From a virus: 64,000 nucleotides of DNA. The notes under the pieces were generated by a model. The model did no database searches and was not told the DNA's origin. It saw only the letters and a list, made by a program, of their open reading frames with translations. Positions 7,639-8,991 of the stretch are shown here, piece by piece. A program made the position numbers and the translations under genes. The stretch's first letter is position 1, and the number at the start of each line of letters is the position of its first letter. The stretch covers positions 116,406-180,405 of the IMG/VR virus record IMGVR_UViG_3300044712_002679, one strand, 5' to 3'.

Positions 7639-7728
7639 AAAATCAGAATACATTTTGTGGGTTTGAACCACGTTAACAAAGTTTCAGTTTGTATTTTAAC
7701 CTTTTGTTTTTGCTGTGCGTATTCTTTG
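7639..7728 (-). repeat. tRNA-derived spacer repeat: conserved trailer + free anticodon-arm-like hairpin (loop CUGAAAC) + T-arm-like hairpin
   Basis: CAAAGAATACGCACAGCAAAAA trailer; ACAAA-CTGAAAC-TTTGT (7676..7692); GTGG-TTCAAAC-CCAC (7657..7671); homologous to 7895..7977. Confidence 0.7.
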
Positions 7729-7801
7729 TGGGGTAGACTGGTTACGATCCAGTTCCTATGGATTTTCAGTCCACCGCAATGACCACATCTGCCACTACCC
7801 C
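7729..7801 (-). tRNA. tRNA-Phe (GAA), variant with swapped T-loop ATCGTAA
   Basis: Acceptor GGGGTAG/CTACCCC, anticodon arm GTGGA-CTGAAAA-TCCAT, T arm ACTGG-ATCGTAA-CCAGT, discriminator A. Confidence 0.75.
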
Positions 7802-7810
7802 AATTATTTG

Positions 7811-7894
7811 CGGAGAAAAAGGGATTCGAACCCCCACACCAGTTTCCCGATTTCACTGTTTTCGAAACAGCTAACTACACCAATAGGCTTCTCC
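7811..7894 (-). tRNA. tRNA-Ser (CGA), class II
   Basis: Acceptor GGAGAAG/TTTCTCC, anticodon arm GCTGT-TTCGAAA-ACAGT, T loop TTCGAAT, discriminator G; 84 nt. Confidence 0.8.
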
Positions 7895-7977
7895 AAGTTC
7901 AGAATACTTTTGTGACATCGAATCACGACAAATTTCAAGTTTGCTTTACCTTTTTTTGCTGTATGTATTCTTTTTTG
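7895..7977 (-). repeat. tRNA-derived spacer repeat: trailer + anticodon-arm-like hairpin (loop CUUGAAA) + T-arm-like hairpin
   Basis: CAAAAAAGAATACATACAGCAAAAA trailer; GCAAA-CTTGAAA-TTTGT; GTGA-TTCGATG-TCAC; homologous to 7639..7728. Confidence 0.7.
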
Positions 7978-8053
7978 TGGACTGTATCGGATTTGCACCG
8001 ATTGTTAGCATAATTACTTTTTTGGTTTGCTATGCTTCAAAAAGCAACAGCCC
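7978..8053 (-). tRNA. tRNA-like gene with 17-nt anticodon loop and 4-nt D loop (probable pseudogene or non-canonical tRNA)
   Basis: Acceptor GGGCTGT/ACAGTCC, T arm ATCGG-TGCAAAT-CCGAT, stem TAGCA/TGCTA enclosing AACCAAAAAAGTAATTA; same 3' trailer as the two tRNA-Phe genes. Confidence 0.35.
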
Positions 8054-8055
8054 AT

Positions 8056-8676
8056 TTATTTTTTATATTTATTTTTATTTTTTCCACCATGTGTATCTAA
8101 TGTTGCATTACAATTTGGACATAATATTCTTAAATTTGTTAATCTATGATCATTATTTATCCCATTTATATGATCTAATATTAAACTTATATGTTTTCCT
8201 TTCCAATTTTCATCTTGTCCACACATTTCACACTTTCTTTTTTTTAATCCATCTTCATATAATCTTTCTTTCAAATGTGTTGTATTAAAATTGGAATTTT
8301 CAACTAATATTAATGATAAATCTATTTTTTTATTTAAATTTTTTATTTGAAATTCATATTTAATAAAATGATCAATATTTATATCATATTTTTTAATATA
8401 TTTTTTTAATGTGTTATAAGAAGAACCAAAATTATTAATATCTAATTTAATTAAACATTCTTTATATGTTTTTGAATTTTTAACAATTTCAATTAAATAA
8501 TCTTTTTCATATTTATTTTTTACACTATAATGTGCTTCTATTTTTAATTTTTTTCGTCTTTCCTCAATTGATCTTATTGATCTATCTAATTTAGTTAAAC
8601 AATATTTTAAACCATAAATAGGATAATTTTCAATCAATATATCATCTTCATTTTTTGTCCATTTTTTATTTTTCAT
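8056..8676 (-). CDS. HNH homing endonuclease (free-standing)
   Basis: CEMCGQDENWKGKHISLILDHINGINNDHRLTNLRILCPNCNA = HNH core with flanking CxxC pairs; embedded in tRNA array. Confidence 0.85.
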   Translation of the reverse strand: MKNKKWTKNEDDILIENYPIYGLKYCLTKLDRSIRSIEERRKKLKIEAHYSVKNKYEKDYLIEIVKNSKTYKECLIKLDINNFGSSYNTLKKYIKKYDINIDHFIKYEFQIKNLNKKIDLSLILVENSNFNTTHLKERLYEDGLKKRKCEMCGQDENWKGKHISLILDHINGINNDHRLTNLRILCPNCNATLDTHGGKNKNKYKK

Positions 8677-8767
8677 TTTAAGTTATTTTTTGTAGTATAT
8701 ATAAATATTTTAAACTACAAAAAATCACTATGAACTATAAAAATTCAAAAAAATAGTTATGGGAATG

Positions 8768-8848
8768 CACGACAGAGAGGATTCGAACCCCTGAACCTTT
8801 CGGTATAGTTTTGGAGACTATCAGCTTTAACCACTTGCATACTGCCGT
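8768..8848 (-). tRNA. Class II (long variable arm) tRNA, anticodon CCA (Trp codon UGG), discriminator G
   Basis: Acceptor ACGGCAG/CTGTCGT, class II-type D loop AAGTGGTTAAA, anticodon arm ATAGT-CTCCAAA-ACTAT, variable arm ACC-GAAA-GGT, T arm AGGGG-TTCGAAT-CCTCT; 81 nt. Confidence 0.65.
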
Positions 8849-8857
8849 ATATTTTTG

Positions 8858-8941
8858 CGGAGGCGAAGGGAATCGAACCCCCAAATCATTACTGATTTAC
8901 TTGTTTTCAAGACAAGCCCCTCGTCCATTCGGACCACCTCC
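8858..8941 (-). tRNA. tRNA-Ser (UGA), class II
   Basis: Acceptor GGAGGTG/CGCCTCC, anticodon arm CTTGT-CTTGAAA-ACAAG, variable arm AAATCA..TGATTT, T loop TTCGATT, discriminator G. Confidence 0.85.
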
Positions 8942-8991
8942 AAATACAATTTAAAAGATTGTTCGTTATTTTTTGCTGTATGTATTCTTTG
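8942..8991 (-). repeat. Spacer with conserved trailer and free anticodon-arm-like hairpin (loop CUUUUAA)
   Basis: CAAAGAATACATACAGCAAAAAA trailer after tRNA-Phe; ACAAT-CTTTTAA-ATTGT at 8946..8962, loop identical to the two UUU-anticodon tRNAs. Confidence 0.65.

What the first reader, a model, noticed from the sequence alone, without database searches (positions are those of the whole stretch)
7639..8991. Stand-alone anticodon-stem-loop look-alikes in the tRNA spacers
The three spacers that follow the Phe(variant), tRNA-like(7978) and Phe(canonical) genes start with a conserved trailer, CAAA(AA)GAATACRYACAGCAAAAA. Each then contains a 5-bp stem with a 7-nt loop, U at loop position 2 and a purine at position 6. 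The hairpins are ACAAA-CUGAAAC-UUUGU (7676..7692, Phe-like), GCAAA-CUUGAAA-UUUGU (7928..7944, identical loop to tRNA-Ser UGA) and ACAAU-CUUUUAA-AUUGU (8946..8962, identical loop to both UUU tRNAs). Two of them are followed by a T-arm-like hairpin. They have no acceptor or D arms. They may be relics of decayed tRNA genes. The intact anticodon-arm geometry also fits minihelix decoys for anticodon nucleases or modification enzymes.
Basis: partly seen in the sequence, partly recalled or inferred. Interest (0 to 1): 0.6.

Follow-up and report, generated by a model that had tools for sequence, protein, structure and literature searches.

The report
Phage Y-RNA-like tRNA mimics between tRNAs
The three tRNA spacers are not stray hairpins: they belong to a large, apparently undescribed family of structured phage RNAs in which a conserved closing stem carries a tRNA-like piece, and elsewhere this family sits next to a gene for a Ro60-like RNA-binding protein, much as Y RNAs do.

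Summary
All three hairpins, the shared trailer and two T-arm-like hairpins are at the stated coordinates. The "trailer" (AGAAUAC-NN-ACAGCAA) is the 5' half of a 7-bp closing stem. Its 3' half (GUAUUCU-G) lies just before the next tRNA.

This cassette is widespread in tRNA islands of large phages. I found 326 non-redundant copies with 153 different, co-varying arm sequences. Its cargo ranges from almost nothing, through anticodon-stem-loop mimics and ASL+T-arm modules (window A and B), to whole circularly permuted tRNAs.

Of 79 viral loci fetched only because they encode a DUF2828/DUF7788 protein, 62 carry the cassette. Of the 290 copies, 287 are on the gene's strand. That protein's predicted fold matches Ro60 best. 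In 13 loci the gene's own start codon lies inside a cassette copy.

A covariance model trained only on those loci ranks the three window spacers first (45, 36 and 28 bits; next hit 17).

Best reading: Y-RNA-like RNAs with tRNA-mimic modules. Caveat: no DUF2828 gene lies in the window or in the 9.6 kb to its left. The decoy function remains untested.

The parts
7644..7725 (-). Element A, between tRNA-Phe (7728-7801) and tRNA-Ser GCU (7553-7638). 5' arm AGAAUAC 7725-7719; GC; ACAGCAA 7716-7710; GG of the D-loop-like stretch 7701-7700; ASL-like hairpin 7692-7676 (loop CUGAAAC); T-arm-like hairpin 7671-7657 (loop UUCAAAC); 3' arm GUAUUCU 7651-7645; G 7644.
   Evidence: Sequence; fold with closing stem; pattern match; independent covariance model R1 gives 36.5 bits, E 5e-5.
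7900..7971 (-). Element B, between the aberrant tRNA-like gene (7978-8050) and tRNA-Ser CGA (7810-7894). 5' arm 7971-7965; AU; ACAGCAA 7962-7956; GG 7950-7949; ASL-like hairpin 7944-7928 (loop CUUGAAA); T-arm-like hairpin 7926-7912 (loop UUCGAUG); 3' arm 7907-7901; G 7900.
   Evidence: Sequence; the MFE fold equals the centroid. R1 gives 44.8 bits, E 9e-7, with the model's cargo hairpin aligned to the ASL-like hairpin. The orthologue at L005 2700-2773 shows a G.U to A-U change in the ASL stem.
8941..8988 (-). Element C, a truncated member between tRNA-Phe (8991-9067) and tRNA-Ser UGA (8857-8941). 5' arm 8988-8982; AU; ACAGCAA 8979-8973; ASL-like hairpin 8962-8946 (loop CUUUUAA); 3' arm only GUAUUU 8947-8942, overlapping the hairpin; the following G (8941) is tRNA-Ser +1. 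No T arm.
   Evidence: Sequence; partner with 1 mismatch; R1 gives 28.0 bits, E 0.003, third best hit in the window.
5366..5399 (-). The same motif in permuted order, inside the anticodon arm of the tRNA gene at 5309-5443. 3'-arm-like GUAAUUU 5399-5393; G 5392; 10-nt loop; 5' arm AAAUUAU 5381-5375; GC; ACAGCAA 5372-5366.
   Evidence: Rfam tRNA hit of 45.5 bits with a 73-nt insert between the outer anticodon-stem pairs; perfect upstream partner; same arrangement in L036 727-832.
7553..9067 (-). Flanking tRNA genes, whose processing would set the ends of the elements. Phe 8991-9067, Ser-UGA 8857-8941, Trp 8767-8848, tRNA-like 7978-8050, Ser-CGA 7810-7894, Phe 7728-7801, Ser-GCU 7553-7638. An HNH homing-endonuclease ORF lies at 8056-8676.
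   Evidence: ARAGORN, Rfam, Pfam.

Best explanation
The three spacers encode small structured RNAs of one conserved family.

Anatomy. Each has a protein-binding-type module and an apical tRNA-mimic module.
- The first module is a 7-bp stem formed by the two ends of the spacer. It carries an invariant single-stranded ACAGCAA two nucleotides after the 5' arm, an A-rich 3' strand, and a G after the 3' arm.
- In A and B the apical module is a D-loop-like GG, an anticodon-arm-like hairpin and a T arm. In C it is an anticodon-arm-like hairpin only.

Proposed mechanism. The RNAs are co-transcribed with the tRNAs. They are released when the flanking tRNAs are cut out: 3' trimming of tRNA-Phe sets the 5' end, and RNase P at tRNA-Ser sets the 3' end. 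Like Y RNAs with Ro60, the stem/ACAGCAA module is bound by a phage Ro60-like ring protein (DUF2828+DUF7788). The tRNA-like module then presents a tRNA surface to a tRNA-binding partner. That partner could be an RNA repair or decay enzyme, or a host anticodon nuclease.

Shown here: family membership, RNA-level structure, and genomic linkage of the family to the Ro60-like gene.

Inferred: protein binding, release by tRNA processing, and the partner of the tRNA-like module.
For: 1. Family. The cassette occurs in about 65 non-redundant exact-pattern copies in IMG/VR. A looser rule finds 326 non-redundant copies with 153 different arm sequences.

2. Arm pairing. 27% of ACAGCAA sites have a perfect 7-bp partner at the right offset, against about 5% for scrambled motifs or a clearly shifted offset. 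The arms show 2-5 pair types per position.

3. RNA level. Single non-Watson-Crick positions in the arms are G.U 18 times and A.C 2 times.

4. Linkage.
- ORF clustering of element-bearing loci gave DUF2828+DUF7788 as the commonest neighbour.
- In the reciprocal test, 62 of 79 loci fetched only by DUF2828 homology carry the element within 6 kb. Of the 290 copies, 287 are on the gene's strand. Controls gave 2-7 loci.
- Arrays start right after the stop codon.

5. Operator-like copies. In 13 of 79 loci the gene's AUG lies inside a 5' arm (AG-AUG-UU, then UUC GAC AGC AAA), with the 3' arm about 50 nt into the ORF. This is the pattern of an autoregulatory operator that mimics the RNA ligand.

6. Protein fold. 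The AF2 model of the DUF2828 protein has all top 11 PDB matches to Ro60/TROVE proteins over about 540 columns (E 7e-7 to 4e-4), including a phage Ro60. Weak vWA_Ro60 and RO60 sequence hits agree.

7. Topology matches known Y RNAs (Chen 2014, PMC4201824).
- YrlA is a 5'/3' stem plus V, T, a closed acceptor stem-loop and D. That equals the permuted-tRNA cargo seen here.
- D. radiodurans Yrn1 has D-loop features, an anticodon-like arm and a T arm. That equals window A and B.

8. Independent membership test. Model R1, trained only on DUF2828-adjacent copies, ranks B, A and C as the top three hits in 64 kb (44.8, 36.5 and 28.0 bits; next 16.6).

9. Subtype near the gene. ASL+T-arm cargo also occurs beside DUF2828 genes, for example L238 8076, L233 8225 and L193 8170.

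10. Position relative to tRNAs. 58 of 287 elements end 12 nt or less before a tRNA.
Against: - No DUF2828 homologue lies in the 64-kb window (profile search; tblastn). The 9.6 kb to its left was scanned only with Pfam models, and no DUF2828 or TROVE domain was reported there.
- No DUF2828 hit was found in the held parts of the closest relatives (L155, L097, L005, L062).
- The conserved motif is ACAGCAA, not the GNCGAAN0-1G/CGAA motif of known Y RNAs. No Rfam family matches.
- The structure model is of modest confidence (pLDDT 62; TM about 0.3).
- Linkage could be partly indirect, because DUF2828 genes themselves sit in tRNA islands: 470 tRNAs in the 79 loci.
- There is no expression or binding data.
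- Element C is truncated. The L005 orthologue of A has lost its cargo and reads ACAGCAU, so some copies may be decaying.
Confidence: 0.6

Rival explanations
1. Cis-acting processing structures of the polycistronic tRNA precursor. The stem plus ACAGCAA would be a recognition site for an RNase or other processing factor that separates neighbouring tRNAs. The tRNA-like inserts would be incidental.
For: All three window copies lie exactly between two tRNAs. The 5' arm starts 3-5 nt after the discriminator, and the 3' arm ends 0-6 nt before the next tRNA. 58 of 287 elements end 12 nt or less before a tRNA.
Against: Many copies stand in tandem arrays with no tRNA between them: 82 neighbouring pairs are 6 nt or less apart (L162, L173 and L185). 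Others lie in front of or inside the start of a protein gene. The cargo hairpin is itself conserved, with compensatory changes, and is enriched for anticodon-like loops. Most tRNA junctions in the window lack the element.
Confidence: 0.14
2. Relics of decayed tRNA genes with no present function.
For: The cargo loops equal phage tRNA anticodon loops, and T-loop sequences are present. Element C is truncated, and the L005 copy of A has lost its hairpins. ARAGORN and Rfam do not call them tRNAs.
Against: The flanking stem and ACAGCAA are conserved in hundreds of copies across unrelated contigs, with co-varying arms. Relatives show compensatory changes in the T-like stem: GUGG/CCAC, GUGA/UCAC, UUGG/CCAA, GACG/CGUC. 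Model R1, built from unrelated loci, scores them at E 9e-7 to 3e-3.
Confidence: 0.1
3. Anticodon-nuclease or modification-enzyme decoys acting on their own, without a Ro60-like partner.
For: Anticodon-like 7-nt loops are strongly enriched as cargo (43 observed against 1.35 expected). CUUUUAA, the tRNA-Lys UUU loop, is the commonest. From general knowledge, tRNA-Lys(UUU) is a known target of anticodon nucleases such as PrrC.
Against: Loop length varies from 6 to 9 nt among orthologues of A and B. The stems are weak and A-U rich. The most conserved part is the scaffold, not the loop. The family is strongly linked to the Ro60-like gene. No nuclease was tested.
Confidence: 0.08
4. A splicing or circularisation cassette, either self-cleaving or enzyme-dependent, that matures permuted and interrupted tRNA genes. 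The short window copies would be degenerate members.
For: Some members hold circularly permuted tRNAs, which ARAGORN calls as intron-containing tRNAs once the sequence is circularised (9 cases). Two normal-order tRNAs carry the motif in the anticodon arm. A Tpt1/KptA RNA 2'-phosphotransferase gene lies about 2 kb left of the window.
Against: No consistent splice junction yielding a 7-nt anticodon loop could be derived, because the distance from ACAGCAA to the tRNA body varies (hand analysis sequences). Several permuted copies have acceptor stems of only 3-5 bp (L137, L160). The minimal member is 28 nt. No ribozyme family matches in Rfam. Closed-acceptor permuted tRNA is exactly the YrlA topology, which is not spliced.
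Confidence: 0.05
5. A DNA-level element: a miniature transposon with 7-bp inverted repeats, a recombination site or a homing-endonuclease target.
For: It has terminal inverted repeats, many copies per genome, and homing-endonuclease genes nearby.
Against: Strand bias relative to the neighbouring gene is 287:3. G.U outnumbers A.C by 18:2. The arms differ between adjacent copies while staying complementary within each copy, which fits RNA folding and not a shared protein-recognised DNA end.
Confidence: 0.03

Closest known systems
Bacterial and phage Y RNAs: YrlA of Salmonella, Mycobacterium and phages; Yrn1 of Deinococcus radiodurans; Yrl1/2 of Thermus phage phiLo
   Same: - Modular design: a stem formed by the 5' and 3' ends, a large internal loop with a short conserved motif, and an apical tRNA-like module.
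- Both topologies seen here are known. YrlA has T, a closed acceptor stem-loop and D. Yrn1 has D-loop features, an anticodon-like arm with a non-canonical loop, and a T arm.
- The genes lie next to, and on the strand of, a Ro60-type gene, often in more than one copy (PMC4201824; PMC12135203).
   Different: - The conserved motif is ACAGCAA, not GNCGAAN0-1G/CGAA.
- The neighbouring protein is DUF2828+DUF7788. It is Ro60-like only by predicted fold and is not a Pfam TROVE protein.
- Copies form long tandem arrays of up to about 10 per locus.
- Cargo is often just an anticodon-stem-loop mimic.
- No Rfam model matches.
- In the window no such protein gene is nearby.
HDV-like theta ribozymes next to phage tRNAs (PMC10879173)
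   Same: A small structured RNA placed directly beside phage tRNA genes, proposed to matter for tRNA biology.
   Different: Theta ribozymes are nested double pseudoknots that cleave at their own 5' end. The present element is a simple stem with an internal loop. It can be as short as 28 nt, shows no HDV-type core and gave no HDV-family hit in Rfam.
Circularly permuted and split tRNA genes of algae and archaea (known from the literature, recalled)
   Same: Some family members encode the tRNA 3' half before the 5' half, with leader and trailer pairing.
   Different: There is no bulge-helix-bulge motif. Acceptor stems are often closed and short. The window members are not permuted.
T4 stable RNAs C and D (species 1 and 2) in the T4 tRNA cluster
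   Same: Small stable non-tRNA RNAs of unknown function encoded inside a phage tRNA cluster beside a homing-endonuclease gene.
   Different: No sequence or motif similarity. T4 rnaD has only an ACAGCAG stretch and no matching arms.

Membership tests
ACAGCAA-stem cassette family (defined here; RNA linked to DUF2828) | A 7-bp closing helix whose 5' strand starts AG (preceded by A) and whose 3' strand ends CU | tested here: met
   A pairs 7725-7719 with 7651-7645. B pairs 7971-7965 with 7907-7901, both perfect. C has only 6 bp including one G.U.
ACAGCAA-stem cassette family (defined here; RNA linked to DUF2828) | Invariant ACAGCAA starting two nucleotides after the 5' arm | tested here: met
   Present in A, B and C at the exact offset.
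ACAGCAA-stem cassette family (defined here; RNA linked to DUF2828) | G immediately after the 3' arm (95% of members) | tested here: met
   A has G at 7644 and B at 7900. In C the G is the first base of tRNA-Ser (8941).
ACAGCAA-stem cassette family (defined here; RNA linked to DUF2828) | Significant score with a covariance model built from members outside the window | tested here: met
   R1 (55 DUF2828-adjacent copies): B 44.8 bits, A 36.5 bits, C 28.0 bits; the next window hit scores 16.6 bits.
Y RNA (Ro60-binding non-coding RNA) | The 5' and 3' ends pair into a stem that flanks a large internal loop or bulge | tested here: met
   Predicted folds, with covariation of the stem across the family.
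Y RNA (Ro60-binding non-coding RNA) | Conserved Ro60-binding motif GNCGAAN0-1G / CGAA in the stem-bulge | tested here: not met
   The conserved motif is ACAGCAA. The literature motif is quoted. No Y RNA family hit in Rfam.
Y RNA (Ro60-binding non-coding RNA) | Encoded next to a Ro60/TROVE gene | tested here: inconclusive
   At family level the feature is met: 62 of 79 DUF2828 loci carry the element, and the protein's best fold matches are Ro60. For the window it is not met: no homologue in 64 kb, and Pfam reported none in the 9.6-kb left flank.
Y RNA (Ro60-binding non-coding RNA) | Physical binding to the Ro60-type protein | not testable with these tools
   Needs EMSA, RIP or a structure. The only indirect hint is the operator-like copy over the gene's own start codon in 13 of 79 loci.
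Y RNA (Ro60-binding non-coding RNA) | tRNA-like effector module (T arm, D-loop features) | tested here: met
   A and B have T-loop sequences UUCAAAC and UUCGAUG, with stems that co-vary in relatives, and a GGU(U)AA stretch. C lacks the T arm.
Canonical tRNA | Cloverleaf with a D stem, a 7-nt anticodon loop, and a T stem stacked directly on a 7-bp acceptor stem | tested here: not met
   No ARAGORN or Rfam tRNA call in the spacers, even at E up to 10. There is no D stem, and 4-5 unpaired A residues separate the T stem from the closing stem.
HDV-like (theta) ribozyme | Nested double pseudoknot P1-P1.1-P2-P3-P4 with a catalytic C | tested here: not met
   No HDV-family hit at E up to 10. The minimal member of 28 nt (L005 2954-2982) cannot hold that fold.
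Intrinsic terminator / sigma-70 promoter | GC-rich hairpin plus U tract; or -35/-10 hexamers | tested here: not met
   The scan of 5000-9700 places no terminator-like or promoter-like site on the elements. The promoter-like count is not above shuffles.

The most novel reading that the evidence does not exclude
Large phages carry a previously unrecognised Ro60-like ribonucleoprotein system. It would consist of a DUF2828/DUF7788 ring protein plus arrays of interchangeable Y-RNA-like guides. Each guide has a constant stem/ACAGCAA handle and displays a different tRNA part: anticodon arms of Lys, Phe, Ser, Met, Tyr and others, elbow modules, or whole permuted tRNAs. The arrays would work as a programmable set of tRNA mimics. 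They would either intercept host tRNA-targeting defences (anticodon nucleases) or bring damaged tRNAs to repair or decay enzymes. The protein would autoregulate through a handle copy over its own start codon. The window's three spacers would be members released by ordinary tRNA processing.
Probability: 0.3. Interest if true: 0.9.

Novelty: new variant of a known kind. Interest (0 to 1): 0.75.

Why it matters
Ro60 and Y RNAs are an old puzzle. Their tRNA-like modules are known, but what those modules bind is not.

This family offers hundreds of natural variants in which the handle stays constant and the tRNA-like part changes. The cargo runs from bare anticodon arms to complete permuted tRNAs. 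That makes the question of what the tRNA mimic is for directly testable.

It would also give a function to DUF2828/DUF7788, a protein family with more than 1,400 homologues found here. No functional study of it turned up in the searchable literature.

In addition, it would explain recurrent "junk" spacers and odd tRNA-like calls in phage tRNA islands. It links phage tRNA islands to the arms race around tRNA cleavage and repair.

For annotation, the cassette is easy to recognise: AG-N5, NN, ACAGCAA, variable cargo, N5-CU-G.

Tried and rejected
- Near and distant DNA searches of the phage collection found nothing but homing-endonuclease and tRNA similarity.
- The first motif scan of IMG/VR gave only chance hits. 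A protein anchor (the 460-aa ORF) found no IMG/VR relative. It did lead to the syntenic contig L005.
- Rfam gave no hit in the spacers at gathering or E-value thresholds.
- HDV-like theta, hammerhead, twister, pistol and hatchet ribozymes were considered. The core sequences as I recall them do not fit, and Rfam is silent.
- T4 RNAs C and D were compared; there is no similarity.
- Promoter and terminator readings were rejected.
- A bulge-helix-bulge or splicing reading of the permuted members was tried by hand on the sequences. No consistent junction gave a 7-nt anticodon loop, so I dropped it in favour of the YrlA-type closed-acceptor topology.
- The MAFFT alignment of the ASL+T-arm subtype (A2) put several rows out of register. 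I therefore read the stems directly and did not count pairs on it.
- A DUF2828 homologue was sought in the window and not found. Pfam scans of window ORFs and of the left-flank genes reported no DUF2828 or TROVE domain either.
- The papers by Burroughs and Aravind (2016) and Sim et al. (2020) could not be read.
- The metagenome and genome collection scans were not used.
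Full report
**The region**

The window is A+T-rich (about 25% G+C) and phage-like. It holds a split family-B DNA polymerase, a helicase, and HNH, GIY-YIG and LAGLIDADG endonucleases. A cluster of at least 15 tRNA genes lies on the minus strand at 5091-9282.

The finding concerns three spacers on that strand:
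- A (7639-7727) lies between tRNA-Phe and tRNA-Ser(GCU).
- B (7895-7977) lies between an aberrant tRNA-like gene and tRNA-Ser(CGA).
- C (8943-8990) lies between tRNA-Phe and tRNA-Ser(UGA).

**Check of the observation**

The T-arm-like hairpins follow in A and B. The shared trailer AGAAUACRYACAGCAAAAA occurs three times, against 0.19 expected.

AGAAUAC in the trailer is complementary to GUAUUCU at the 3' end of spacers A and B. The resulting 7-bp helix closes the whole spacer around both hairpins. In C the 3' arm is shortened to GUAUUU and runs into tRNA-Ser. So the hairpins are not stand-alone.

Thermodynamics alone do not single them out (z = -1.3, -1.8 and +0.2).

**Relatives**

A syntenic contig (L005, reached through the neighbouring 460-aa protein) keeps element B almost unchanged, with a G.U to A-U change in the anticodon-like stem. 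Its copy of A is reduced to AGAAUAC-AUACAGCAUAAAAU-GUAUUCU. The closing stem and the ACAGCA core are therefore the constant part, and the hairpins are cargo.

Pattern scans of IMG/VR then showed that this cassette is widespread. The consensus is: (U)AA, then a 7-nt arm starting AG, NN, ACAGCAA, a variable interior of 14-140 nt, an A-rich stretch, the complementary arm ending CU, then G (profile).

Adjacent copies in tandem arrays use different arms, each complementary within its own copy.
- 27% of ACAGCAA sites have a perfect partner at the right offset, against about 5% for scrambled motifs or a clearly shifted offset.
- In all fetched DNA there are 326 non-redundant copies with 153 distinct arms.
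- Single non-Watson-Crick positions are G.U 18 times and A.C twice.

This is a structure selected at the RNA level on the tRNA-sense strand. It is not a DNA repeat.

**Cargo**

The main length class is 60-70 nt. Its interior is usually one hairpin.
- Its loop has 7 nt in 70 of 210 cases (19 in shuffles).
- It has the anticodon-loop form Y-U-NNN-R-N in 43 cases (1.35 in shuffles).
- CUUUUAA is the commonest loop.

On an alignment of 55 copies chosen only by their arms, this hairpin is paired in 70% of cells, with many double changes.

Longer members carry an anticodon-like arm plus a T arm preceded by a GGU(U)AA stretch. These include window A and B and the copies in L005, L062, L097, L149, L155 and L057. 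Their T-like stems read GUGG/CCAC, GUGA/UCAC, UUGG/CCAA and GACG/CGUC.

Other long members carry a complete circularly permuted tRNA: T arm, acceptor 3' strand, short loop, acceptor 5' strand, D arm. ARAGORN of these as tRNAs once the sequence is circularised.

Two normal-order tRNAs, the window's 5309-5443 and L036 727-832, carry the motif in the anticodon arm in the order 3' arm, G, loop, 5' arm, NN, ACAGCAA.

**The protein neighbour**

Clustering the ORFs of element-bearing loci gave one dominant neighbour, a 470-660-aa protein with Pfam DUF2828 and DUF7788 and a MIDAS-like DxSxS motif.
- All 18 loci with this gene had the element. None of the chance-hit control loci that lacked the cassette had the gene.
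- The reciprocal test is the strongest result. Of 79 viral loci fetched only for encoding a DUF2828 relative, 62 carry at least one strict element within 6 kb. There are 290 elements in all, 287 on the gene's strand. Scrambled or shifted controls hit 2-7 loci.
- Arrays typically begin just after the stop codon.
- In 13 loci the gene's own AUG lies inside a 5' arm (AG-AUG-UU, UUC GAC AGC AAA = MFDSK), with the 3' arm about 50 nt downstream. This arrangement is typical of RNA-binding proteins that repress their own mRNA through a mimic of their RNA ligand.

The same loci hold 470 tRNAs, 465 on that strand. The gene, the elements and the tRNAs therefore form one island.

**What the protein is**

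An AlphaFold model of a representative (P0121) has modest confidence (pLDDT 62). It has a helical-repeat N-terminal part and an alpha/beta C-terminal part. All of its top 11 Foldseek matches in the PDB are Ro60/TROVE proteins aligned over about 540 columns (E 7e-7 to 4e-4). They include Ro60 of Thermus phage phiLo. Isolated vWA domains follow. Sequence profiles give only weak RO60 and vWA_Ro60 hits.

Ro60 proteins bind Y RNAs. The published bacterial and phage Y RNAs have exactly this modular build: a stem formed by the two ends, a large loop with a short conserved motif, and a tRNA-like module. Both topologies are described. YrlA has V, T, a closed acceptor stem-loop and D. Yrn1 has D-loop features, an anticodon-like arm with a 6-nt loop, and a T arm. 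Both are encoded beside the Ro60 gene (PMC4201824; PMC12135203).

The permuted-tRNA members here match the YrlA topology. Window A and B match the Yrn1 topology.

**Independent membership test**

A covariance model was built only from 55 copies adjacent to DUF2828 genes, with no window sequence. Run over both strands of the 64-kb window without filters, it returned B (44.8 bits, E 9e-7), A (36.5 bits, E 5e-5) and C (28.0 bits, E 0.003) as the three best hits. The next hit scored 16.6 bits.

**How it most likely works**

Shown: the elements are RNA-level structures of a conserved family, on the tRNA strand, and linked at family level to a Ro60-like gene.

Inferred:
- They are co-transcribed with the tRNAs and released by ordinary tRNA end processing.
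- The stem/ACAGCAA handle binds the Ro60-like protein.
- The tRNA-like module recruits or distracts a tRNA-binding factor.

By analogy with known systems, the outcome could be tethering of an exonuclease such as PNPase, a platform for tRNA repair, or decoying of anticodon nucleases.

**Limits**

- No DUF2828 homologue was found in the window. Pfam scans of the genes in the 9.6 kb to its left reported none. None was seen in the held parts of the closest relatives.
- The motif differs from the Y RNA motif, so I do not file the elements as Y RNAs in the strict sense. I describe them as Y-RNA-like.
- Linkage might be partly indirect through tRNA islands.
- Element C and the L005 copy of A look partly degenerate.

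**Literature and novelty**

Ten full-text searches found Y RNAs and theta ribozymes. They found no description of this motif or of an RNA partner for DUF2828. A large catalogue of candidate viral structured RNAs exists (PMC10690425) and might contain it unnamed.

I rate it a new variant of a known kind.

Noticed in passing
window 5309-5443 (-): A tRNA gene with normal acceptor, D and T arms (Rfam 45.5 bits) has a 73-nt insert in its anticodon arm. The insert contains the family motif in permuted order (GUAAUUU-G, loop, AAAUUAU-GC-ACAGCAA). ARAGORN does not call it. It may be a Y-RNA-like molecule with an open acceptor end, not a decoding tRNA.
   Followed up: partly
window 7978-8050 (-); L005 2612-2690: An aberrant tRNA-like gene upstream of element B. 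It has a good acceptor stem and T arm (loop UGCAAAU), a hairpin in place of the D arm, and a 5-bp 'anticodon' stem with a 17-nt loop. It is conserved at about 93% in L005, and a counterpart exists in L062. Not called by ARAGORN or Rfam.
   Followed up: partly
window 6186-7097, 8056-8676, 14595-15389 (-); L005 about 1890-2439: GIY-YIG (SegE-like, NUMOD3) and HNH homing-endonuclease ORFs sit between tRNA genes, and a LAGLIDADG ORF lies about 5 kb beyond the cluster. In L005 an endonuclease-like ORF occupies the place of element C.
   Followed up: partly
L268 7474-7998 (about 2-2.5 kb left of window position 1; Logan SRR26046407 contig): An RNA 2'-phosphotransferase (Tpt1/KptA, Pfam E 4e-46) is encoded close to the tRNA island, next to two radical-SAM genes. 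A vWA plus PP2C gene pair lies further left. Tpt1 points to RNA ligation or repair chemistry in this phage.
   Followed up: no
window 28612-29151 (+): A phage-encoded translation initiation factor IF-3, with both domains (Pfam E 5e-32 and 1e-19).
   Followed up: no
window 5266-5306 (-): A perfect 10-bp hairpin GGCAGCAAAU-UGA-AUUUGCUGCC, flanked by A and U runs, lies between the interrupted tRNA and tRNA-Trp. It looks like a bidirectional terminator. It contains GCAGCAA and scored about 13 bits with model R1 on both strands.
   Followed up: no
window 2315-3121 (-) and 58155-59207 (+); 3187-4569 (-): Two R2K-clade ATP-grasp genes. The 460-aa protein beside the tRNA island has a conserved domain that recurs in other contigs fused to NUDIX, ART-PolyVal, GNAT or CCA-adding-enzyme domains.
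   Followed up: no
window 13335-13889 (-): An HD-domain protein. Related HD_4-domain proteins recur in several element-bearing tRNA islands (a cluster found in 5 loci), and L155, L097, L181, L186 and L057 encode proteins 68-69% identical to the window's copy.
   Followed up: no
L162 about 217-650, L173 about 7920-8375 and 4550-4800, L185 10650-10967, L199 10278-11630: Tandem arrays of 4-10 cassette copies separated by about 3 nt (often AUA). Each has different arms and different cargo, including anticodon-like loops for several amino acids and permuted tRNAs.
   Followed up: partly
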